From contig JBHLLU010000029.1 in NCBI GenBank assembly GCA_048938895.1, forward strand, positions 1-52,183: a DNA stretch of 52,183 nucleotides, written 5' to 3'. How positions within the stretch are numbered: position 1 is the first letter of the stretch; each line of letters opens with the position of its first letter. The position numbers and the translations under genes were made by a program. The notes below the pieces were generated by a model. That model was not told where the DNA came from and ran no database searches. It saw only the letters and a list, made by a program, of their open reading frames with translations. This document shows, one piece after another, positions 4,455 to 45,422 of this stretch. This DNA is from Promethearchaeota archaeon (lineage in GTDB: Archaea > Asgardarchaeota > Lokiarchaeia > Sigyniarchaeales > SOKP01).

Positions 4455-7400
4455 ATGCCCTTAGATAAAACTATAAAAAAAGCATTAGTCTTAGGTTCTG
4501 GAGGGATTCGTATTGGTCAAGCGGGAGAATTTGACTATTCTGGAAGTCAAGTCTTAAAAGCTCTAAAAGAAGAGGGAATTACAACTATTTTAATTAATCC
4601 AAATATTGCCACAATCCAAACTGACCCAGAATTATCTGATCGAGTTTATTTATTGCCTATAAGCCTCAAATATGTAGAAGAAGTTATTAAAAAAGAAAAG
4701 CCTGATGGCATTTTATTATCCTTCGGAGGTCAGACCGCATTAAATATGGGAGTTGAACTAAAAGAAGCGGGAATTTTTGAGAAATATCAACTTAAAGTGC
4801 TAGGTACTCCGATTGAGGCAATAGAAGCAACTGAAGACCGAGATCTATTTGTTAAAGCAATGGAAAAATCAGAAGTTAAAGTATGTAAAAGTCAAGCGGT
4901 AAGTTCTTATATGGATGCTTTAAAGGCGGTAGAGGAGATTGGATTTCCTTGTATGATTCGAGTAGCTTATACTTTGGGTGGTAGAGGCTCTGGTATAGTT
5001 AATAATATGAATGAATTTGAAAGAATGGCAAAGAAAGGTTTAGCTCAATCCAGGATTAACCAGATCTTAATTGAAGAAAGCATCTGGGGATGGAAAGAAA
5101 TTGAATATGAAGTGGTTCGAGATTCTGAAGATAATTGTTTTATCAATTGTAATATGGAAAATTTTGATCCTGTTGGATTACATACAGGAGAATCTTTAGT
5201 AGTGAGTCCTAGTCAAACTCTTACCAATGAAGAGTATCAAATGCTTCGTTCTGCTTCAATAAGAGTTATTCGTAACCTTGGCATTATTGGAGAATGCAAC
5301 ATTCAGTATGGATTAGACCCGTTTTCAAAAGAATTTAGAGCAATTGAAGTGAACGCACGTTTATCGAGGTCCTCAGCATTAGCTTCTAAAGCGACTGGAT
5401 ATCCATTAGCTTATATAGCAGCAAAATTAGCTATAGGGTATACGTTACCAGAATTAAAAAACAAAATAACAGGGGTTACAACAGCCTGTTTCGAACCCGC
5501 ATTAGATTACCTAGTACTCAAAATTCCAAGATGGGATCTTACTAAATTTCAAAAAGTGGATCGTAAACTTGGTTCTCAGATGAAGAGTGTAGGTGAAGTA
5601 ATGGCAATAGGCAGAACATTTGAAGAGGTTTTACAAAAGGCGATAAGAATGCTTGATATTGGTATGAAAGGATTTGTTGCGAATGAATTAGAGCCGATTG
5701 AAGATGTTAATGAGTTAAAATATGCCTTAAGAAATCCTACAGATTTAAGAGTATTTAGATTAGCTGAAGCAATTAAGAGGGGAATTACTCTTGATGAAAT
5801 TTACCGCCTCTCAAGGGTAGATAAATGGTTTCTACACAAATTAAAGAATATTATTAACGTTGAAAAGAACCTGGAAAAATTAGACCTGTTAGAATCCACA
5901 GATACAGAAAAAAGCTATTGGTTTGAAAGGGCAAAAAGATTTGGATTTTCTGATGGTCAGATTGGAACCATAATGGGTGTTGATACAATTTTTATTCGGC
6001 AATTAAGAAAAAAATTAGGAATTCAACCATATGTAAAAAGGATTGATACTCTTGCTGCGGAATGGCCAGCTATAACTAACTACCTATACCTTACATATAG
6101 TGCTTCTGAACATGATATAGATTTTGAACATGAAAATAGTTCAAATATTCAAAAAGTTATTGTGTTAGGTTCTGGTACTTACCGTATTGGTGCTTCAGTA
6201 GAATTTGATTGGGGATCAGTTAACTGTTTATGGGGATTGAAAAAATTAGGAATTGATCAAGCAATTATGATTAATTACAATCCTGAGACTGTTTCAACTG
6301 ATTATGATATATCAGATAAACTATACTTTGAAGAAATTTCTGGTGAGAGAGTACTGGATATTTGTGAACTTGAAAAGGCAAATGGGATTGTAGTTTCTGC
6401 GGGAGGACAAATCGCTAATAATTTGGCTGCTAAAATAACAAAATATTCTGAATTCTTTAGAAAAACTAATTTAAAAATACTTGGTACTCATGGTTCAAGA
6501 ATCGATATGGCAGAAGACAGAAGTAAATTTAGTGGTTTACTAGATCAGCTAAATATTAAACAACCCGAATGGAATGCTTTAATAAATAAGAAGGAAGCGT
6601 TAGAATTTGCAAAGAAAGTGAAATATCCGGTTCTTGTGAGACCTTCATATGTGTTAAGCGGAGCTGCTATGAGGGTTTGCTATGACGAAAAAACTTTACA
6701 AGATACTCTAGATCTTGCAGCTTCCGTATCTAAAGAATATCCAGTAGTAATTACCAAATTTTTTACTGATGCAAGAGAAATTGAATGTGATGGTATCTGC
6801 GATGGTACTAATGTACTAATAGGAGCAATAGTTGAGCATATCGAAAATGCAGGAATTCATAGTGGAGATGCAACAATGTCAATCGGATTTTATACGGTTT
6901 CAAATGAAGTAATCAGAAAAATCGAAGAATATACAAAGAAGATCGCTATAGCATTAAAAATCCAAGGTCCCTTTAATGTACAATACCTAGTAGAGAATGA
7001 GGAAGTTTTTGTAATTGAGTGTAATTTACGTAGTTCAAGATCAATGCCTTATGTCTCAAAAACACGAGGTATAAACCTCATGAGATTAGCAGCAGAAGTA
7101 ATAATCGGAAATTCCATTCCAGAAAGATTACTTAATCTTCCATACGGAAATTATGTAGGAATTAAGGCCCCAATGTTTTCTTTCTTAAGGTTAGATAAAG
7201 CAGATTTTCGACTTGGGGTTGAAATGGCATCCACAGGTGAAATTGGCATCATAGGAGAAGATTTTGAAGATGCTTTAATTAAAGCTTTAGAAGCGACTGA
7301 TATGCGTATTCCTGTGGAAGGAGGAAATGTCTTGATTTCAGTAGGAGGAGAAGAATTAAAAAAACAGATAATCCCATTAGCGAAAAAATTAAAAGAAATG

Positions 7401-8285: not shown

Positions 8286-10133
8286 ATGAGAAATAATATA
8301 GCAAGGAATACTCAGCAGCAACGAATTGTTGAGTTCTCACCCGGAAAAGACCCTTTTGAAAAGGCTCGTCAAAAAGGATCACGAAGTTGGATTTATAAGC
8401 ATCTTTTTTATAAATCAAACAAGTATCTGATATTTATTGTATTATTTACAACAATTTTAACATCAAACCTATGGTCTATTTCATCAATTCTAATCGGAAA
8501 TGCTATTAATGATTTCATTTTAGGTAAAACCTCTTCCTTAATTTACTATACTGTTTTTATTTTTTTGTTGAATATTGGGTCCCCTTTTATAAGGATGTTG
8601 AGCTTCGCTTTAAGAGAAGTTATAGCCCATAGGATGGAAAGAGACTGCAGAAGAGAATTCTATACTAATCTTTTAGGTAAAAGCCAATCTTTTCATGAAC
8701 AAATTCAGATTGGTGAGCTGATGGCTCTTGCAACGAATGATGTTCGTATGCTCAATTTTCTGATAAGCCCGGCAATCTCCTTAATTTTCGAATCATTCAC
8801 CGCGTTAGTAATTCCTCTCTTTTATATAATATTTATTCCATATTATCCCATTCAATTATTACTTGCTCCAATTTTGTTTGCAGTTTTTTTCCTAATTTCT
8901 TTGAGATCATATGTTAAGAAGCTAACTCCAATTTCCTTTCAACTTAGAGGATTTTTTGCTGGAATGAATACTACTTTAAACGAAACTCTTACAGGTATTG
9001 AAGTTGTTAAATCTACAGTTCAAGAAGCTGGTGAATTAGAAAAGTATATATTAAATGCAAGTGGATATCGAGACGCCTTTATTAAACAAGGTCGTGTCCA
9101 AGCAAAATATTTCCCCTTTTTGGTATTGGCTTTAACTATTACACTTGGTTTGACTCATGGGATTATTTTAAATTTTACAATTGGCTTTTATATAGGTTAT
9201 ATTATTGGCTATACTGCTCTTTTAAGGCAACTAGGATTTCCAACACAAATTTCCATCTTTGTCTTTGCAACTGTTAGGGTTGCTATTACCAGTGCTCAAA
9301 GACTTATCACTTTGATGAATCGAGAGACTGAAATTGATGAAAATATTAAGGGAACTGCAAAATCTATAAATGGGGGAATTGAATTCGAGAATGTTTCATT
9401 CACTTATCCCGGAAGTGATAAACCTGTACTTAAGAATATCAATCTTGAAGTAAAACAAGGGCAAACAGTAGCTATTGTAGGTACAACAGGTTCAGGAAAA
9501 ACAACCTTGACTAAATTGCTCTCTCGTTTATATGATGTTGACAAAGGCAGAATATTAGTTGATGATATTGATATTCGTGACTATGCTTTAGAATCTTTGA
9601 GGAGTCAAATATCATATATAGAACAGGATGTTTTCTTGTTTTCAGACTCAGTATTCAATAATATTTCTTTTGGTAGGACTTCTTCTAAAGAAGAAATAAT
9701 TCAAGTAGCAAAAGAAGCACAAGCTCACGATTTTATCTGTGATTTACCTAATCAATATCAATCAGAAGTTGGAGAAAGAGGAGTCCAATTGAGTGGTGGA
9801 GAAAGACAAAGAATAGCAATAGCTAGAGCCTTTCTCTCTGATCCAAAAATTCTTATCTTGGATGATTCAACCTCTTCAATAGATTCGAATACAGAAGATA
9901 AAATACAAAGAGCAATTCAAAATATTCTCAAAGATAGAACTACACTTCTGATTACTCACAGGCTTTCACAGATAAGGTGGGCTGACTTGATAGTAGTTTT
10001 AAAGAAGGGAGAGATAGCAGCTATGGGAACTCATGATGAACTTTTATCTACTTCAGAAGAATACAGAAAAATATTTATCAAAAAATTTGATATCGATGTT
10101 GATAAGTTGATTAAACAGGAGGAGGTTTTTTAA
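8286..10133 (+). CDS. ABC exporter TMD-NBD subunit, degenerate catalytic base (heterodimer partner 1)
   Basis: GTTGSGKT, LSGGERQR, Walker B ILILDD (Asp in place of Glu). Confidence 0.93.
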   Translation: MRNNIARNTQQQRIVEFSPGKDPFEKARQKGSRSWIYKHLFYKSNKYLIFIVLFTTILTSNLWSISSILIGNAINDFILGKTSSLIYYTVFIFLLNIGSPFIRMLSFALREVIAHRMERDCRREFYTNLLGKSQSFHEQIQIGELMALATNDVRMLNFLISPAISLIFESFTALVIPLFYIIFIPYYPIQLLLAPILFAVFFLISLRSYVKKLTPISFQLRGFFAGMNTTLNETLTGIEVVKSTVQEAGELEKYILNASGYRDAFIKQGRVQAKYFPFLVLALTITLGLTHGIILNFTIGFYIGYIIGYTALLRQLGFPTQISIFVFATVRVAITSAQRLITLMNRETEIDENIKGTAKSINGGIEFENVSFTYPGSDKPVLKNINLEVKQGQTVAIVGTTGSGKTTLTKLLSRLYDVDKGRILVDDIDIRDYALESLRSQISYIEQDVFLFSDSVFNNISFGRTSSKEEIIQVAKEAQAHDFICDLPNQYQSEVGERGVQLSGGERQRIAIARAFLSDPKILILDDSTSSIDSNTEDKIQRAIQNILKDRTTLLITHRLSQIRWADLIVVLKKGEIAAMGTHDELLSTSEEYRKIFIKKFDIDVDKLIKQEEVF

Positions 10134-40041: not shown

Positions 40042-40905
40042 TTACTTCATAAGAAAAAGTTTGATTAAAAAAATGAATAAATTTAAATCATTCAGAAGGG
40101 AAAAGTTGGAAATGAGATAATCAAAAATATTTTCATCAATGAATAGTTTCAAAGATTCGAAGTAACCTTCCTCAAGTTTAAGAATTTCAACCATCCTTTG
40201 AATTAAATTTATGAGTTGTTTTTCAGCAACTAGCATATCACAATTCATAGGATTTATATTGATGATATTAATTCCCGTTTTTCTCTGAAAATTAATTTTA
40301 CTTAGTTCAGGATTTTTTTCTACAATCTCTAGTTCTGTATAATTTTTGAACATTTGTTCGATCTTTTTATAGATTCTTTTTTTCTTTTTTTCAGAATAAT
40401 GTCCTTCGATAACATTGATAATCAAATTTAAAATTTGTTGGAAAATTCCAAGCATATCAAAAAATTCAGCAACTGTTGATATACGTTCGGCTTGTTTCCA
40501 TTGGGTATAAAATTCATCAATAACATTTTCAAAAGGTTTATAAATCTCAACATTTCCTGCCCATTTACTCCCCCATCGGTTTTCATTATTTGCATATTGT
40601 TGTATAAAAGTTTGTCGTATTACATCTAATCTTGATCTTAATGTATCACCACTTACTTCTTTTGAGTCTGCAGCAATAAACAGAAGATTTGTTTCTTTAT
40701 CTTGGATATAGACCCATCTTAATCCTCCCATTTCAATTGAATCTATTCCTTGTTTAAATTCTACTATAGTAAACTGATTTAAAGCAGTTAAAAGTCCAGA
40801 AACAAGATCTTCATTTACGGGAAAATCCATATATGGTTTATATACCAAAGTAATTCCTGAGTCAGATTCCATAACCCATATATTAATCCTAAAACACCTA
40901 AACAA
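40042..40905 (-). CDS. Longin-like domain protein
   Basis: N terminus WVMESDSGITL...DLVSGLLTALNQF...IDSIEMG..RWVY...LLFIAA. Confidence 0.65.
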   Translation of the reverse strand: MFRCFRINIWVMESDSGITLVYKPYMDFPVNEDLVSGLLTALNQFTIVEFKQGIDSIEMGGLRWVYIQDKETNLLFIAADSKEVSGDTLRSRLDVIRQTFIQQYANNENRWGSKWAGNVEIYKPFENVIDEFYTQWKQAERISTVAEFFDMLGIFQQILNLIINVIEGHYSEKKKKRIYKKIEQMFKNYTELEIVEKNPELSKINFQRKTGINIININPMNCDMLVAEKQLINLIQRMVEILKLEEGYFESLKLFIDENIFDYLISNFSLLNDLNLFIFLIKLFLMK

Positions 40906-41018
40906 ATGCTAAATTTTCTTGTATCCGATGAAATTTTTGAAAAATAACTTATGTCTTAAATAAAGTATGGATTTAAACCTTATAAATTCACTATTAACGA
41001 TAGAATTTAGAGAAGAAG

Positions 41019-41726: not shown

Positions 41727-41930
41727 CTACGTAGATCTGAATAACTTACTTTCTTCTAAGTTGTTTTCTTCTTTACAGTGAGGACAAATCCAAGTTTCAT
41801 CATTTTTTTTAACGGAATTAATGCAATCATGACAAATGGCAACATCACATATACAATAGTAACTATTTTCTATTGAACTTTCACAGCTTTTACCACAAAT
41901 ATAACATTTTGGTGGATGAATGTCTGACAT
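41727..41930 (-). CDS. Small C4C4 RING-like zinc finger protein
   Basis: CYIC-x13-CIC-x4-CHDC-x12-CPHC. Confidence 0.7.
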   Translation of the reverse strand: MSDIHPPKCYICGKSCESSIENSYYCICDVAICHDCINSVKKNDETWICPHCKEENNLEESKLFRST

Positions 41931-42605: not shown

Positions 42606-43292
42606 TTATAAGATATTTAAACCAAAGATGCTTATACCCCAAATCCATAGCGCAAATCCTTGAACTAAACAAAAAATCATAACTACAAATGCGATAGGGG
42701 GCCATGAAAGGAATTTTGATACAGTTTTCAATATTCCGACATAGAATTTCACAGTAAGAGCAACTACTATTGTTACAATTATAAAGATTATAACAAGTAA
42801 CCACTTTGGATTAATAACTCCAGCAATCAATTCAACCGCTCCATCTGGTACAAGCAATGCAATTATGATAACTGTCCCTGTCCCTGCTAAAAGACCAATG
42901 ATACTAGAGAGTGGAAGATCACTGATTGGTTTCATAAACATCACGATGCCGATCACTATCAAGAAGATGCAAGTGAAATGGTTAGCAGCATCTTCAGTAA
43001 CATCTCGGTATTCAAAACTAGGTGGTATATCACGAATTAACCCAATAGCACCTGACCATACAACAAAAATTCCAAGAACTAAACCAAGATAAGATAATCC
43101 CCGTAAAAATTTTGTTACATCAAATTCTGCATCTACTTTTCTTTTTATAAATGATCCCCTTCGCTTTCTTTCATAACCTAGCCATGTAATTGCCATTAAG
43201 CCGCTTAAAACCATCATAATGGCCGCAGATTCACCAACCCAACTGAAAAAACCTCGAATCACATCCCAATAATCAAACAACACATAAATCAC
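42606..43292 (-). CDS. Hypothetical multi-pass membrane protein
   Basis: 228 aa with about 6 TM segments. Confidence 0.75.
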   Translation of the reverse strand: MIYVLFDYWDVIRGFFSWVGESAAIMMVLSGLMAITWLGYERKRRGSFIKRKVDAEFDVTKFLRGLSYLGLVLGIFVVWSGAIGLIRDIPPSFEYRDVTEDAANHFTCIFLIVIGIVMFMKPISDLPLSSIIGLLAGTGTVIIIALLVPDGAVELIAGVINPKWLLVIIFIIVTIVVALTVKFYVGILKTVSKFLSWPPIAFVVMIFCLVQGFALWIWGISIFGLNIL

Positions 43293-43460
43293 TTTTTTTA
43301 TTTCTAAATTTTAAATATATGTTAGATTTTGTTTTTAAAAATTTATTCTATAAAATCTTCTTTACTGGAATGTTTACACTTATACTTATTTACCATAAAA
43401 ATAATATATTTATTCTTTTATCTATTGCATAACTAAAAAACACACTATTAAATGATTCAA

Positions 43461-43622
43461 ATGTCTGAATGGAAAAATAGAATTCAAACATCCTTCTGTA
43501 ATGATGCCTATAAATCGGGTTGAGTTACAGTTGACCAAATAATAAACAGTATAAAAAAAATGCGTCTTAAAAGGCAGCTGAAAAAAAAAGAAAAACTAAA
43601 GCAAAAAAATCTCAAAGAATAG
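43461..43622 (+). CDS. Candidate small UGA-recoded protein (selenopeptide) 1
   Basis: MSEWKNRIQTSFCNDAYKSG-[TGA 43521]-VTVDQIINSIKKMRLKRQLKKKEKLKQKNLKE; alternative ATG at 43452. Confidence 0.55.
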
Positions 43623-43674
43623 CTTAATAAATGTTAGGAGCTCTTCTTAGAAATTCTGCAATGAATTGGAGATT
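43608..43674 (+). other. Conserved three-way-junction RNA element, copy 1
   Basis: AATCTC/GAGATT outer stem; 11-position hairpin with loop AATAAATGTTAG; AATTC-TGCAAT-GAATT hairpin. Confidence 0.7.
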
Positions 43675-43826
43675 AAACACATTTCTTATTTTATTACTTA
43701 TTCGAAATTTTATATTCATTTTTATAAAATATTTTATTCCTCTCCTAATTTTTTATCTTTTATAATCCTCATCCTTTAATCTCTCATTAGTTTAAAGTTA
43801 ATTAAATAATAATATGGTTTATTATA

Positions 43827-43961
43827 ATGGCTGAAGAAGAAGACTATCTCGATTTAGAATATGATGATGGTTGTTATGCAACAACTTGATCAATGGTAAA
43901 TATGTGGTACCAAAGAGCCCGTAAATTACACAAGTTAAAAGAAGAACTAGCTGAAAAATAA
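43827..43961 (+). CDS. Candidate small UGA-recoded protein (selenopeptide) 2
   Basis: MAEEEDYLDLEYDDGCYATT-[TGA 43887]-SMVNMWYQRARKLHKLKEELAEK; TATA-like element about 25 nt upstream. Confidence 0.6.
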
Positions 43962-43965
43962 AAAA

Positions 43966-44032
43966 TTATCTCAAGAAGCTAAATCATTAAATATTAGGAT
44001 TTAGTTTTAAGTTCTGCAAGAACAAGAGATAA
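43966..44032 (+). other. Conserved three-way-junction RNA element, copy 2
   Basis: TTATCTC/GAGATAA outer stem; 11-bp hairpin with loop ATTAAATATTAG; GTTC-TGCAA-GAAC hairpin. Confidence 0.7.
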
Positions 44033-44060
44033 AAAAGGTAGGTATTTTATTCAATTTTAA

Positions 44061-45422
44061 TTATTTTCTTGATCCTTCTCCTATTTTCCGATAAATAAAT
44101 CCTTTACTTTTAACAGTATTTTTATTAAAAATATTACGACCATCTATTATAATCGGTTTAGATCTCATTTTTTTCTTTAGATCATCAAGGTCAATTGAAT
44201 AATATTGTTTATGATTAGTAACAAATAAAAGAACATCAGAATTTTTCACAGCATAATCTAAATCTTCCGTTAATTCCGTTTTTTTATAATCCTTTTCTTT
44301 AACCCATGGATCATGAGCAATATATTCAATATTATGAGAATGGTATCTTTTTTTTAAGAAATTTACAATTCTTTCAGTTGGGGTATTTCTTGTATCATCG
44401 CAATCTGCCTTGTAAGCAACACCCATTAAAGAGATTTTCAAATTATCATGTTTATCTGCTTCTTTTAAGGTATCTTCCATCAATCCTACCATATGTTCTG
44501 GCATATAATCATTTAACTCTCTACCATACGGTAATAGTTTTACACGGTCGAGAAATCTCTTTGGTGTATAAGTTTCAAGACCATACATTAGCAACCATGG
44601 ATCTTTTGTTAAACAATGACCACCAACTCCACTACCGGGATAATGCATCATTCTATCATGTCTATAATTTATTAACTTGATGATCTCAAATACATTTCGA
44701 TCAAAATCTTCGGCTACCAATGCCATTTCGTTTGCAAAGGCAATGTTTACATCCCTATATGTATTCTCTATACATTTTGTCAATTCAGCAGTTAATGTAT
44801 CTGTAACCTGAAGCTGTTCTTTTACTACTTTCCCATAAAGAAATTTCGCATTTTCATTGGCCTTATCACATCCTCCCCCTATTACTCTTGGGAAATCCGT
44901 AATATATTCTAAAAGTTTACCGGGCATCACTCGCTCAAATGAAAATACAAGATAAAAATCTTCACCTCTTTTCATTCCACTTCCTTCTTCCAAAATTGGC
45001 TGTACAATGTTATCTGTAGTTCCTGGTGCTACTGTTGACTCAATAATTACCGTCACTCCTTTTTTCATTTTTGGTGCGATCAGATTTGAGACATCCTTTA
45101 ATGAATCATAAAGAGGAATTTTTCTAATTGGGTCAACAGGGGTCTGTACTCCAATCAAAATATAATCTGCTTCATTAATTTGCTCATAGCTATCAGTTAC
45201 TCTGAATTTTCCCTGCCCTACTATTCTTTCTATTAAATCATCTAGACCGGGCTCATCTCCCTCGAAAGGATTCTTTCCTTTATTAAGCCAATCGATTTTC
45301 CAGCCGGATCTTTTCGATCTTCGTTGGATTCCCGTAACATAAAAATCTGGAACATTTGCAAGCAGAGCACTCATTGGGATTCCAACATACCCCATCCCAA
45401 TATAAGTAATTTTAGTTGCCAT
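44061..45422 (-). CDS. Nucleotide-sugar dehydrogenase (UDP-ManNAc/GlcNAc dehydrogenase family)
   Basis: GMGYVG, ESTVAPGTT, KCIENTYRDVNIAFANE, GVGGHCL, DGRN. Confidence 0.92.
   Translation of the reverse strand: MATKITYIGMGYVGIPMSALLANVPDFYVTGIQRRSKRSGWKIDWLNKGKNPFEGDEPGLDDLIERIVGQGKFRVTDSYEQINEADYILIGVQTPVDPIRKIPLYDSLKDVSNLIAPKMKKGVTVIIESTVAPGTTDNIVQPILEEGSGMKRGEDFYLVFSFERVMPGKLLEYITDFPRVIGGGCDKANENAKFLYGKVVKEQLQVTDTLTAELTKCIENTYRDVNIAFANEMALVAEDFDRNVFEIIKLINYRHDRMMHYPGSGVGGHCLTKDPWLLMYGLETYTPKRFLDRVKLLPYGRELNDYMPEHMVGLMEDTLKEADKHDNLKISLMGVAYKADCDDTRNTPTERIVNFLKKRYHSHNIEYIAHDPWVKEKDYKKTELTEDLDYAVKNSDVLLFVTNHKQYYSIDLDDLKKKMRSKPIIIDGRNIFNKNTVKSKGFIYRKIGEGSRK

What the first reader, a model, noticed from the sequence alone, without database searches (positions are those of the whole stretch)
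43452..44032. Tandem small ORFs with in-frame TGA at codon 21: candidate new selenopeptide family
Seen: the apparently empty 43.3-44.0 kb gap holds two consecutive + strand ORFs, MSEWKNRIQTSFCNDAYKSG-TGA-VTVDQIINSIKKMRLK... (43461-43622) and MAEEEDYLDLEYDDGCYATT-TGA-SMVNMWYQRARKLHKL... (43827-43961). In both, TGA is codon 21, Tyr is at -4, Val is at +3, one Cys lies just upstream, and the frame continues 32 or 23 codons as a Lys/Arg-rich helix to a TAG/TAA stop. Each is followed by the same structured RNA element. Established: Lokiarchaeota encode selenocysteine machinery and use SECIS elements outside the recoded codon. Inference: these are UGA-recoded (Sec) mini-proteins that I cannot place in any known archaeal selenoprotein family (they do not resemble VhuU, VhuD, HdrA or SPS).
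Basis: partly seen in the sequence, partly recalled or inferred. Interest (0 to 1): 0.92.

Follow-up and report, generated by a model that had tools for sequence, protein, structure and literature searches.

The report
Small selenoprotein pair with variant SECIS
Two tiny neighbouring genes each carry a conserved in-frame UGA that is almost certainly read as selenocysteine, helped by an unusual RNA signal just after each gene, which adds two unlisted selenoprotein families and a new form of the insertion signal to Asgard-type archaea.

Summary
Two + strand ORFs (43461-43622 and 43827-43961) each have TGA as codon 21, and each is followed by a homologous ~70-nt structured RNA.

Evidence that UGA is read as Sec:
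- ORF A homologues keep the TGA in 102 of 102 genomes.
- ORF B homologues keep it in 62 of 66 genes. The other 4 have TGT (Cys) at that exact codon.
- Purifying selection continues in frame past the TGA (pN/pS 0.38-0.50, against 0.75-1.2 in shifted frames).
- The genome has tRNA-Sec, SepSecS, a PSTK-like gene, an EFSec candidate and two Sec-containing SelD genes.

Evidence that the RNA element is the SECIS:
- It follows 62 of 62 TGA-bearing ORF B genes.
- It is missing after 3 of the 4 Cys forms and is weakest after the fourth.
- One copy is shared where the ORFs are bicistronic.
- It predicted TGA ORFs in a genus that the protein profiles had missed.

The element is a three-way junction. Its main hairpin has the apical-loop signature of lokiSECIS, and its layout matches this genus's SelD SECIS. 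It lacks the AUGA_GA core, and a canonical lokiSECIS model does not detect it.

There are no expression or proteomic data, and the peptides' function is unknown. I read this as a new variant of a known kind.

The parts
43395..43415 (+). A/T-rich block conserved upstream of ORF A, about 45-65 nt before the ATG. Candidate archaeal TATA/promoter (inferred).
   Evidence: Conserved block in the MAFFT alignment of 19 loci. No transcript data.
43461..43622 (+). ORF A: 53 codons plus stop. The N-terminus is M-S-E-W-K, Sec is codon 21, followed by a hydrophobic then Lys/Arg-rich helix.
   Evidence: 102 of 102 strong matches keep one TGA; pN/pS 0.48 upstream, 0.50 downstream; AF2: helices 3-11 and 17-52, pLDDT 74.7.
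43521..43523 (+). In-frame TGA of ORF A, read as Sec.
   Evidence: TGA in 58 of 58 distinct homologous sequences. Public gene calls carry W there in 15 of 16 and L in 1.
43605..43677 (+). Element A, a three-way-junction RNA. Lower stem 43608-43613 / 43669-43674. H1 43615-43625 / 43638-43648, with a 12-nt loop at 43626-43637. H2 43651-43656 / 43663-43668, with a loop at 43657-43662. The TAG stop of ORF A lies in the H1 5' strand.
   Evidence: Model R1 scores 84.8 bits. Pair counts. The MFE fold of 43590-43700 gives the same junction.
43750..43768 (+). Conserved T/A-rich block about 60-85 nt before the ORF B ATG. A second conserved block lies at about 43717-43738. Candidate promoter for a separate ORF B transcript (inferred).
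   Evidence: Conserved columns in the intergenic alignment of 19 loci.
43827..43961 (+). ORF B: 44 codons plus stop. It has an acidic N-terminus, Cys16, Sec21 and then an amphipathic basic helix.
   Evidence: 62 TGA and 4 Cys among 66 strong matches; pN/pS 0.32 upstream, 0.38 downstream; AF2: single helix 14-43, pLDDT 77.8.
43887..43889 (+). In-frame TGA of ORF B, read as Sec.
   Evidence: Among 57 distinct sequences, 53 have TGA and 4 have TGT. Public gene calls: 24 W and 1 C among 25 full-length entries.
43964..44034 (+). Element B, a paralogous three-way junction. Lower stem 43968-43972 / 44026-44030. H1 43975-43985 / 43998-44008, with a loop at 43986-43997. H2 44011-44014 / 44020-44023, with a loop at 44015-44019.
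   Evidence: Model R1 scores 53 bits. Fold z-score -4.99. Pair counts.

Best explanation
The gap holds two paralogous mini-genes. In this genus each is probably its own transcript: a conserved A/T-rich promoter-like block, a short ORF, a structured 3' element, then a T-rich stretch.

The UGA at codon 21 of each ORF is decoded as selenocysteine by the genome's Sec-tRNA/EFSec system. The recoding signal is the ~70-nt element that starts 78-84 nt after the UGA. This element is a three-way junction with three parts:
- a sequence-conserved lower stem (AUCUC/GAGAU);
- a 10-11-bp hairpin H1, whose 12-nt loop keeps the invariant A-A-A, three variable nucleotides and U-A-G of bona fide lokiSECIS apical loops;
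- a short hairpin H2 with a C-G-C-A-A loop that abuts the lower stem.

The layout is the same as that of the SelD SECIS of this genus, but without the AUGA_GA kink-turn core.

The products are 44-57-residue, largely single-helix peptides. A Cys...Sec pair sits at the N-terminal end of the long helix: C-x-x-U in most ORF A, C-x7-U in this window's ORF A, and C-x4-U in ORF B. A basic tail follows. My inference is that they are thiol/selenol redox or metal/selenium-handling mini-proteins.

What is shown: the anatomy, the conservation, the Sec/Cys alternation, the RNA structure, and its linkage to the TGA. What is inferred: actual Sec insertion, SECIS activity of the element, and the biochemical role.
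For: (1) TGA retention.
- ORF A: 102 of 102 strong profile matches in 102 genomes of one family carry one in-frame TGA.
- ORF B: 62 of 66 strong matches carry TGA. The other 4 have no stop and read TGT = Cys at that codon.
- No TAA or TAG replacement was seen.

(2) Coding continues past the TGA.
- pN/pS in frame for the first 16 downstream codons is 0.50 (A) and 0.38 (B). Upstream it is 0.48 and 0.32. Shifted frames give 0.75-1.2.
- Invariant residues lie downstream of the TGA: D25 in A; W27 and R30 in B.

(3) Sec machinery in the genome.
- tRNA-Sec.
- SepSecS, 393 bits and 499.7 bits with TIGR03531.
- A PSTK-like gene, 151 bits.
- A SelB/EFSec candidate, 243.3 bits.
- Two SelD genes with one TGA each.
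- Four VhuD-type genes with two TGA each.
- SepSecS, SelB and 10 of 14 FlpD matches have no in-frame TGA, so TGA is not a general sense codon.

(4) The RNA structure is real.
- Model-independent MAFFT alignments give 93.9% and 93.0% of cells paired, against 22-58% when partners are slid. Compensatory changes occur in 5 and 8 pairs.
- Over 121 copies, 94.6% of cells are paired and 23 of 23 pairs show double changes.

(5) The element is linked to the TGA.
- It is present after 62 of 62 TGA-bearing ORF B genes, at 35.6-59.9 bits.
- It is absent at E <= 1 with filters off after 3 of 4 Cys-ORF B genes. After the fourth it has the lowest score of all, 32.5 bits.
- It is present after ORF A in 20 of 20 further loci from eight genera.
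- In 4 loci of genus g27 and 1 of g19, ORF A and ORF B lie about 20 nt apart and share one element after ORF B.
- A whole-genome model search of 151 genomes finds it only in this family, at 1-2 copies per genome.
- In 4 of 4 g18 genomes that the protein profiles missed, a TGA ORF with C-T-G-U lies just upstream of the element.

(6) Kinship with bona fide SECIS.
- The only invariant loop columns of 9 canonical lokiSECIS from this genome are A-A-A, and an A-G that abuts the 3' stem, with 4 nt between. This is the same as in H1.
- The SelD SECIS of this genus is also a lower stem, a SECIS hairpin and a second hairpin with a G-C-R-A type loop abutting the lower stem. There 96.7% of cells are paired, and H2 has compensatory changes in 4 of 5 pairs.

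(7) ORF A and ORF B are distant paralogues with Sec aligned to Sec (hhalign probability 85%, E 5.8e-6).
Against: - No AUGA_GA core. The two base pairs at the foot of H1 covary as Watson-Crick pairs.
- A covariance model of 9 canonical lokiSECIS, run over the whole window with filters off at E <= 10, does not hit either element.
- Rfam has no match.
- No Cys form of ORF A was found: 0 of 102 genomic matches and 0 of 16 database proteins. One database protein (P0037) carries Leu at the Sec position.
- The four Cys forms of ORF B probably represent only two independent events: three near-identical sequences plus one. The element-loss correlation therefore rests on two events, and one of them still keeps a weakened element.
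- The genomes are kin, so the counts are not independent.
- Alignment A8 was fitted to the model.
- No transcript, ribosome or proteome evidence exists.
- The peptides' function has no support beyond motif and fold prediction. The AF2 models are moderate (pLDDT 75-78), and a lone helix says little.
Confidence: 0.75

Rival explanations
1. The UGA is read as Sec, but the conserved three-way junction is not the SECIS. It would serve another purpose, such as mRNA stability, termination, processing or regulation. Recoding would then depend on some other signal.
For: The element lacks the AUGA_GA core that defines every described Asgard SECIS (PMC4989117 passages; PMC11227280 section 14). It is invisible to a canonical model. 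One Cys form keeps a recognisable copy.
Against: No other conserved structure exists on these ~230-nt units; the intergenic alignment shows only A/T-rich blocks. The element is lost in 3 of 4 Cys forms, shared in bicistronic loci, and found nowhere else in 151 genomes. Its H1 loop has the lokiSECIS invariants.
Confidence: 0.12
2. The TGA is a true stop. The genes would encode 20-residue peptides, or nothing, and the conserved sequence downstream would be part of a non-coding RNA.
For: Standard gene calling stops at the TGA. The region downstream does overlap a structured RNA at its 3' end.
Against: The in-frame pN/pS downstream of the TGA equals that upstream and is lower than in shifted frames. 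TGA is replaced by TGT with the frame kept open in 4 genes. Length differences keep the frame: every homologue reads through to a TAA or TAG in the same frame.
Confidence: 0.05
3. The UGA is read through by a mechanism other than Sec, such as near-cognate Trp or Cys insertion, or local reassignment.
For: Public gene calls show W at the position. One variant has Leu.
Against: The W calls are what table-4 style calling gives on short contigs (inference). Conserved genes of this genome have no in-frame TGA. The natural substitute is Cys, the classic Sec partner. Complete Sec machinery and other selenoprotein genes are present.
Confidence: 0.05

Closest known systems
lokiSECIS / type I eSECIS-like element of Asgard selenoprotein genes (Mariotti et al. 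2016, PMC4989117 passages; Huang et al. 2024, PMC11227280 section 14)
   Same: It sits in the 3' UTR right after, or overlapping, the stop codon. It is a hairpin with an A-rich apical loop that ends in A-G. Nine own-genome examples share the invariant A-A-A ... A-G spacing with H1. One element can serve two adjacent genes, as in hdrA-vhuD.
   Different: It has no AUGA before the stem and no GA/AA after it. The stem is 10-11 bp rather than 9, and the loop is 12 nt rather than 11. The hairpin is embedded in a three-way junction. A canonical model does not detect it.
SelD (SPS) type II SECIS of the same genus
   Same: It has the same three-way plan: a conserved lower stem, then the SECIS hairpin, then a second short hairpin with a G-C-R-A type loop that abuts the 3' strand of the lower stem.
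   Different: SelD keeps the AUGA...GA core and has an apical ministem. Its lower-stem sequence is GAUG/CAUC rather than AUCUC/GAGAU. Model R1 gave no match at E <= 1 on the SelD loci L004 and L005.
Euryarchaeal SECIS (GAA_A bulge, G-C upper stem; as described in PMC4989117 and PMC11227280)
   Same: It is located in the 3' UTR in an archaeon.
   Different: It has no asymmetric GAA/A bulge and no run of G-C pairs. H1 is a continuous A/U-rich helix.
C-x-x-U redox selenoproteins of the thioredoxin-like Rdx group (SelW/T/H), recalled from general knowledge and not tested
   Same: Most ORF A carry a C-x-x-U motif at the start of a helix.
   Different: The peptides are 44-57 residues with no beta-strands predicted, and show no sequence match to any Pfam or NCBIfam family. 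ORF B has C-x4-U, and this window's ORF A has C-x7-U.
VhuU, the very small selenopeptide subunit of the F420-non-reducing hydrogenase
   Same: It is a very short archaeal Sec-containing polypeptide.
   Different: VhuU is the split C-terminal piece of a NiFeSe hydrogenase large subunit. These peptides match no hydrogenase family and lie next to no hydrogenase gene.

Membership tests
Selenoprotein gene (UGA = Sec) | In-frame UGA conserved among homologues | tested here: met
   A: 102 of 102. B: 62 of 66. Among distinct sequences, 58 of 58 for A and 53 of 57 for B.
Selenoprotein gene (UGA = Sec) | Homologues with Cys at the Sec position | tested here: met
   ORF B: TGT in 4 genomes and one database protein with C. 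ORF A: none found, so this is met for B only.
Selenoprotein gene (UGA = Sec) | Protein-level conservation on both sides of the UGA | tested here: met
   pN/pS and invariant residues.
Selenoprotein gene (UGA = Sec) | Sec machinery in the genome | tested here: met
   tRNA-Sec, SepSecS, a SelB candidate and SelD are present. The PSTK-like match is below the curated cut-off, at 151 against 290 bits.
Selenoprotein gene (UGA = Sec) | Selenium actually incorporated; full-length product made | not testable with these tools
   No RNA holder was listed. No proteome data were available.
lokiSECIS / eSECIS-like | AUGA immediately 5' of the stem and GA (or AA) immediately 3' | tested here: not met
   The positions flanking H1 are C-A-A-G type and C-U type. 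The two lowest H1 pairs covary as standard pairs.
lokiSECIS / eSECIS-like | 9-bp stem and 11-nt apical loop | tested here: not met
   The stem is 10-11 bp and the loop is 12 nt.
lokiSECIS / eSECIS-like | Adenines at the start of the apical loop, and G preceded by A at its last position | tested here: met
   A-A-A and U-A-G are invariant or nearly so in 121 copies. This is the same as in the canonical set A11.
lokiSECIS / eSECIS-like | Detected by a covariance model of canonical members | tested here: not met
   Model R2 over the whole window, filters off, E <= 10, gave no hit at 43605-43677 or 43964-44034.
Euryarchaeal SECIS | GAA_A asymmetric bulge and G-C upper stem | tested here: not met
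   The supported structure has no such bulge, and H1 is A/U-rich.
Any Rfam family | Score above the gathering threshold | tested here: not met
   There were 0 matches in the window.
Any Pfam / NCBIfam protein family | Score above the curated cut-off | tested here: not met
   Only sub-threshold noise appeared: E 0.05-0.09, 12-15 bits.

The most novel reading that the evidence does not exclude
The element is a fully functional SECIS that works without any kink-turn. In that case the conserved apical loop, together with a three-way junction, would be sufficient to recruit the Sec insertion machinery in Asgard archaea. The AUGA_GA core, taken as the hallmark shared with eukaryotes, would not be an absolute requirement. 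ORF A and ORF B would be the first lineage-specific archaeal selenoproteins found without homology to any known family. They would also be the visible part of a larger hidden set of small Asgard selenopeptides: four more unannotated TGA ORFs with canonical lokiSECIS were seen in this genome.
Probability: 0.55. Interest if true: 0.88.

Novelty: new variant of a known kind. Interest (0 to 1): 0.8.

Why it matters
Archaeal selenoproteomes are described as a handful of large, homology-defined enzyme families. Huang et al. 2024 list seven in Asgard archaea, and a 2026 review lists eleven in all archaea. Both surveys, as far as I read them, searched by homology to known families or with canonical SECIS models.

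These two families would be missed by both routes. They are short, match nothing known, and carry a SECIS without the canonical core. If confirmed, three things follow:
- De novo searches should combine a conserved TGA with a structured 3' element.
- Nature has provided a 'mutant' SECIS that keeps the apical loop but lacks the kink-turn. This bears directly on the open question of what recognises the SECIS in archaea, where no SBP2 has been found.

Tried and rejected
- Rfam search of the whole window at gathering thresholds gave no match.
- A single-sequence fold of 43620-43700 for element A was not better than shuffles (z 0.67). That stretch cut off the lower stem and the H1 5' strand. The fold of 43590-43700 gives the junction.
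- A strict motif regex in the own genome found only the two copies plus four chance matches inside unrelated sequence.
- The canonical lokiSECIS model R2 did not hit the elements. Its two best window hits (10062-10116, 24.3 bits; 5005-5061, 17.5 bits) lie inside ordinary coding sequence and were dismissed as noise.
- I looked for a kink-turn by hand at the foot of H1, around H2 and across the junction. No conserved tandem G.A arrangement appeared. An AUGA before H2 occurs only in part of genus g1.
- Pfam and NCBIfam gave nothing above cut-off. The 12-bit hit to a CobW-related selenoprotein family (E 0.088) is not significant.
- I tried a phyletic test of ORF presence against Sec machinery. It was uninformative, because SepSecS is in 130 of 135 genomes of the family.
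- The bacterial-type promoter/terminator scan was uninformative for an archaeon.
- Flanking genes give no functional lead: a UDP-glucose/GDP-mannose dehydrogenase family gene, a 4Fe-4S protein, and a membrane protein with no family.
- Sequencing runs: no RNA holder was listed, only DNA metagenome contigs.
- I did not run fold searches with the AF2 models, because a lone helix gives meaningless matches.
- Literature searches found no report of small Asgard selenopeptides or of a three-way-junction SECIS. Supplementary tables of PMC11227280 and PMC4989117 could not be seen and might list candidates.
Full report
**Observation**

The 43.3-44.06 kb gap lies between a membrane-protein gene (42606-43292, - strand) and a UDP-glucose/GDP-mannose dehydrogenase family gene (44061-45422, - strand). 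It holds two + strand ORFs, each interrupted by a single TGA.
- ORF A: 43461-43622, with TGA at 43521-43523.
- ORF B: 43827-43961, with TGA at 43887-43889.

In both, TGA is codon 21. Each ORF is followed by a similar ~70-nt stretch.

**Conservation of the locus**

A DNA search of 60 relatives found the locus in 30 of 36 same-genus genomes at E <= 1e-11. The other genera gave only short A/T-rich matches.

I read 20 loci, including the window's own.
- ORF B keeps the in-frame TGA in 20 of 20.
- ORF A keeps it in 19 of 19 readable loci. One locus uses a TTG start. In one further locus ORF A is masked by N.

Profiles of the two peptides were then run over 161 genomes of the class.
- ORF B gave 66 strong matches in 64 genomes, all in one family (genera g1, g19, g27, g28). 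Of these, 62 have one TGA and 4 have none.
- ORF A gave 102 strong matches in 102 genomes of the same family, across nine genera. Every one has one TGA.
- Neither profile gave a credible match in the 27 genomes of other families.

**What replaces the TGA**

The four ORF B genes without a stop read TGT, Cys, at exactly the Sec column. Three of them are near-identical and the fourth is different. I therefore count two independent Sec-to-Cys events (inference).

TAA or TAG never stands at that position.

Public protein collections hold both families only as unnamed or 'hypothetical' short proteins.
- ORF B: 24 of 25 full-length entries have W at the position and 1 has C.
- ORF A: 15 of 16 entries have W and 1 has L.

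I take the W calls to be TGA read by a table-4 style gene caller on short contigs (inference). The single Leu variant is unexplained.

**Coding past the TGA**

I used 58 distinct ORF A and 57 distinct ORF B sequences.

| ORF | pN/pS upstream of TGA | pN/pS, first 16 codons downstream | pN/pS in shifted frames |
|---|---|---|---|
| A | 0.48 | 0.50 | 0.75-1.2 |
| B | 0.32 | 0.38 | 0.75-1.2 |

- Codon-position diversity shows the usual 3 > 1 > 2 order on both sides of the TGA.
- Invariant residues lie after the TGA: D25 in A; W27 and R30 in B.
- A profile-profile comparison aligns A with B over 46 columns, Sec on Sec (probability 85%, E 5.8e-6). The two are distant paralogues.

**Sec machinery**

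The genome has the following:
- tRNA-Sec next to SepSecS on contig C51;
- a SelB/EFSec candidate on the same contig, at 243.3 bits against a cut-off of 242.25;
- a PSTK-like gene, at 151 bits, below the curated cut-off;
- two tandem SelD genes with one TGA each;
- four VhuD-type genes with two TGA each.

Conserved genes such as SepSecS and SelB have no in-frame TGA, so TGA is not a general sense codon here.

**The RNA element**

Both copies fold as a three-way junction:
- a lower stem (AUCUC/GAGAU);
- H1, 10-11 bp with a 12-nt loop;
- H2, 4-6 bp with a C-G-C-A-A(-A) loop that directly abuts the 3' strand of the lower stem.

Model-independent alignments of 20 A-type and 20 B-type copies support this structure.
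- 93.9% and 93.0% of cells form standard pairs, against 22-58% when partners are slid.
- 5 and 8 pairs show compensatory changes.

Across 121 copies aligned to a covariance model (R1), 94.6% of cells pair and all 23 pairs show double changes. That alignment leans towards the model.

The invariant unpaired nucleotides are A-A-A and U-A-G in the H1 loop.

**Linkage of the element to the TGA**

- R1 finds only the two copies in the own genome; the next hit scores 20 bits.
- The element follows 62 of 62 TGA-bearing ORF B genes.
- After the four Cys forms it is absent in three (no hit at E <= 1, filters off). There the sequence runs straight into the end of the convergent gene.
- In the fourth Cys form it scores 32.5 bits, lower than every copy after a TGA-bearing ORF B (35.6 bits and up). 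That copy has a changed H2 loop and a lower-stem mismatch.
- It follows ORF A in 20 of 20 further loci from eight genera, including genomes without ORF B.
- In four g27 loci and one g19 locus, ORF A and ORF B are about 20 nt apart. A single element follows ORF B, as described for hdrA-vhuD (PMC4989117 passages).
- A whole-genome search of 151 genomes finds the element only in this family: 91 of 126 genomes plus the own, and 0 of 24 elsewhere. There are one or two copies per genome, at the ORF loci wherever I compared places.
- In genus g18 the protein profiles found nothing, yet 4 of 5 genomes had an element hit. A TGA ORF with C-T-G-U then x-I-x-D lies just upstream of all four.

**Relation to known SECIS**

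As described in Mariotti et al. 2016 (passages read), lokiSECIS has five features:
- AUGA before the stem;
- a 9-bp stem;
- an 11-nt loop;
- about five adenines at the start of the loop, and an ultraconserved final G preceded by A;
- GA after the stem.

A descriptor scan found nine such elements in this genome. Eight of the nine loops end in U-A-G, although only the final G was required. Their invariant loop columns are A-A-A and A-G, with four nucleotides between. That is the pattern of H1, whose loop is one nucleotide longer at the 5' end.

The SelD 3' UTR element of this genus was examined in 49 distinct copies from 29 genomes. It is also a three-way junction:
- an invariant lower stem GAUG/CAUC;
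- a type II SECIS hairpin with AUGA...GA;
- a second hairpin with a G-C-R-A type loop that abuts the lower stem.

In that element 96.7% of cells pair, and 4 of 5 H2 pairs are compensatory.

So the small-ORF element shares its scaffold with one bona fide SECIS class and its apical loop with the other.

It lacks the core. No AUGA/GA flanks H1, and the lowest H1 pairs covary as standard pairs. A model of the nine canonical elements does not detect it, and Rfam has no match. It is therefore not a member of the described SECIS families, although I think it works like one.

**The peptides**

AF2 with 52-54-row alignments predicts one long helix: residues 17-52 in A, with a short helix at 3-11, and residues 14-43 in B. 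Confidence is moderate (pLDDT 74.7 and 77.8). Sec sits near the helix N-terminus.
- Most ORF A have C-T-G-U. The window's clade has moved the Cys to -8.
- ORF B has C-x4-U after an acidic run.
- Both end in Lys/Arg-rich tails.

There is no family match. I infer a redox or metal/selenium-handling role, with low confidence.

**Transcription units**

Conserved A/T-rich blocks lie upstream of each ORF, and T-rich stretches lie after each element. This suggests two separate short transcripts in this genus. That is an inference; no RNA run was available.

**Literature**

Huang et al. 2024 (sections 6, 13 and 14 read) searched by homology and report seven families in Asgard archaea. A 2026 review (passages read) counts eleven archaeal families. 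Neither mentions small peptides of this kind. Four full-text searches found no such report.

**Verdict**

These are two paralogous, family-restricted candidate selenoprotein genes with a SECIS variant that lacks the kink-turn core. Still missing are direct evidence of expression, of Sec insertion and of function.

Noticed in passing
own genome, contig C51 about 52051-52330 (+); SECIS AUGA at C51:52325: An unannotated small ORF with an N-terminal transmembrane helix, an acidic run, then C-K-I-TGA (C-x-x-U). A canonical lokiSECIS follows it.
   Followed up: no
own genome, contig C102 about 8480-8680 (+); SECIS AUGA at C102:8674: An unannotated small ORF with a transmembrane helix and a Gly-rich stretch, then T-TGA-G-C, ending 7 codons later. 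A canonical lokiSECIS follows it.
   Followed up: no
own genome, contig C144 (- strand), SECIS at C144:55453-55499; and contig C99 about 40300-40960 (+): Two more TGA-containing ORFs sit upstream of canonical lokiSECIS hits. One is a membrane protein with a single TGA. The other has two adjacent TGA codons.
   Followed up: no
own genome C140:32995-33075 and C140:34387-34465; loci L132-L161: The SelD SECIS of this genus is embedded in a conserved three-way junction. Its second hairpin carries a G-C-R-A type loop, and 4 of 5 of that hairpin's pairs covary. I did not find this hairpin mentioned in the sections of the two SECIS papers that I read.
   Followed up: partly
L023 (G006:C1:188494-191950) and L049 (G006:C1:2130389-2133520): One genome carries three ORF B copies and two ORF A copies, each with its own element, for 5 element hits in all.
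   Followed up: partly
loci L072-L074 (G097, G032, G029): In the three genomes with Cys-ORF B and no downstream element, the element after ORF A has B-type sequence in H1 and H2. This suggests gene conversion or rearrangement between the two cassettes.
   Followed up: no
protein P0037: One public ORF A relative has Leu instead of Sec or W at the recoded position. It could be a real loss of Sec, a pseudogene or a sequencing error.
   Followed up: no
window 41727-41930 (-): A 67-residue protein with a sub-threshold RING/U-box-like zinc-finger match (23.3 bits against a cut-off of 27) lies 1.5 kb upstream of the finding.
   Followed up: no
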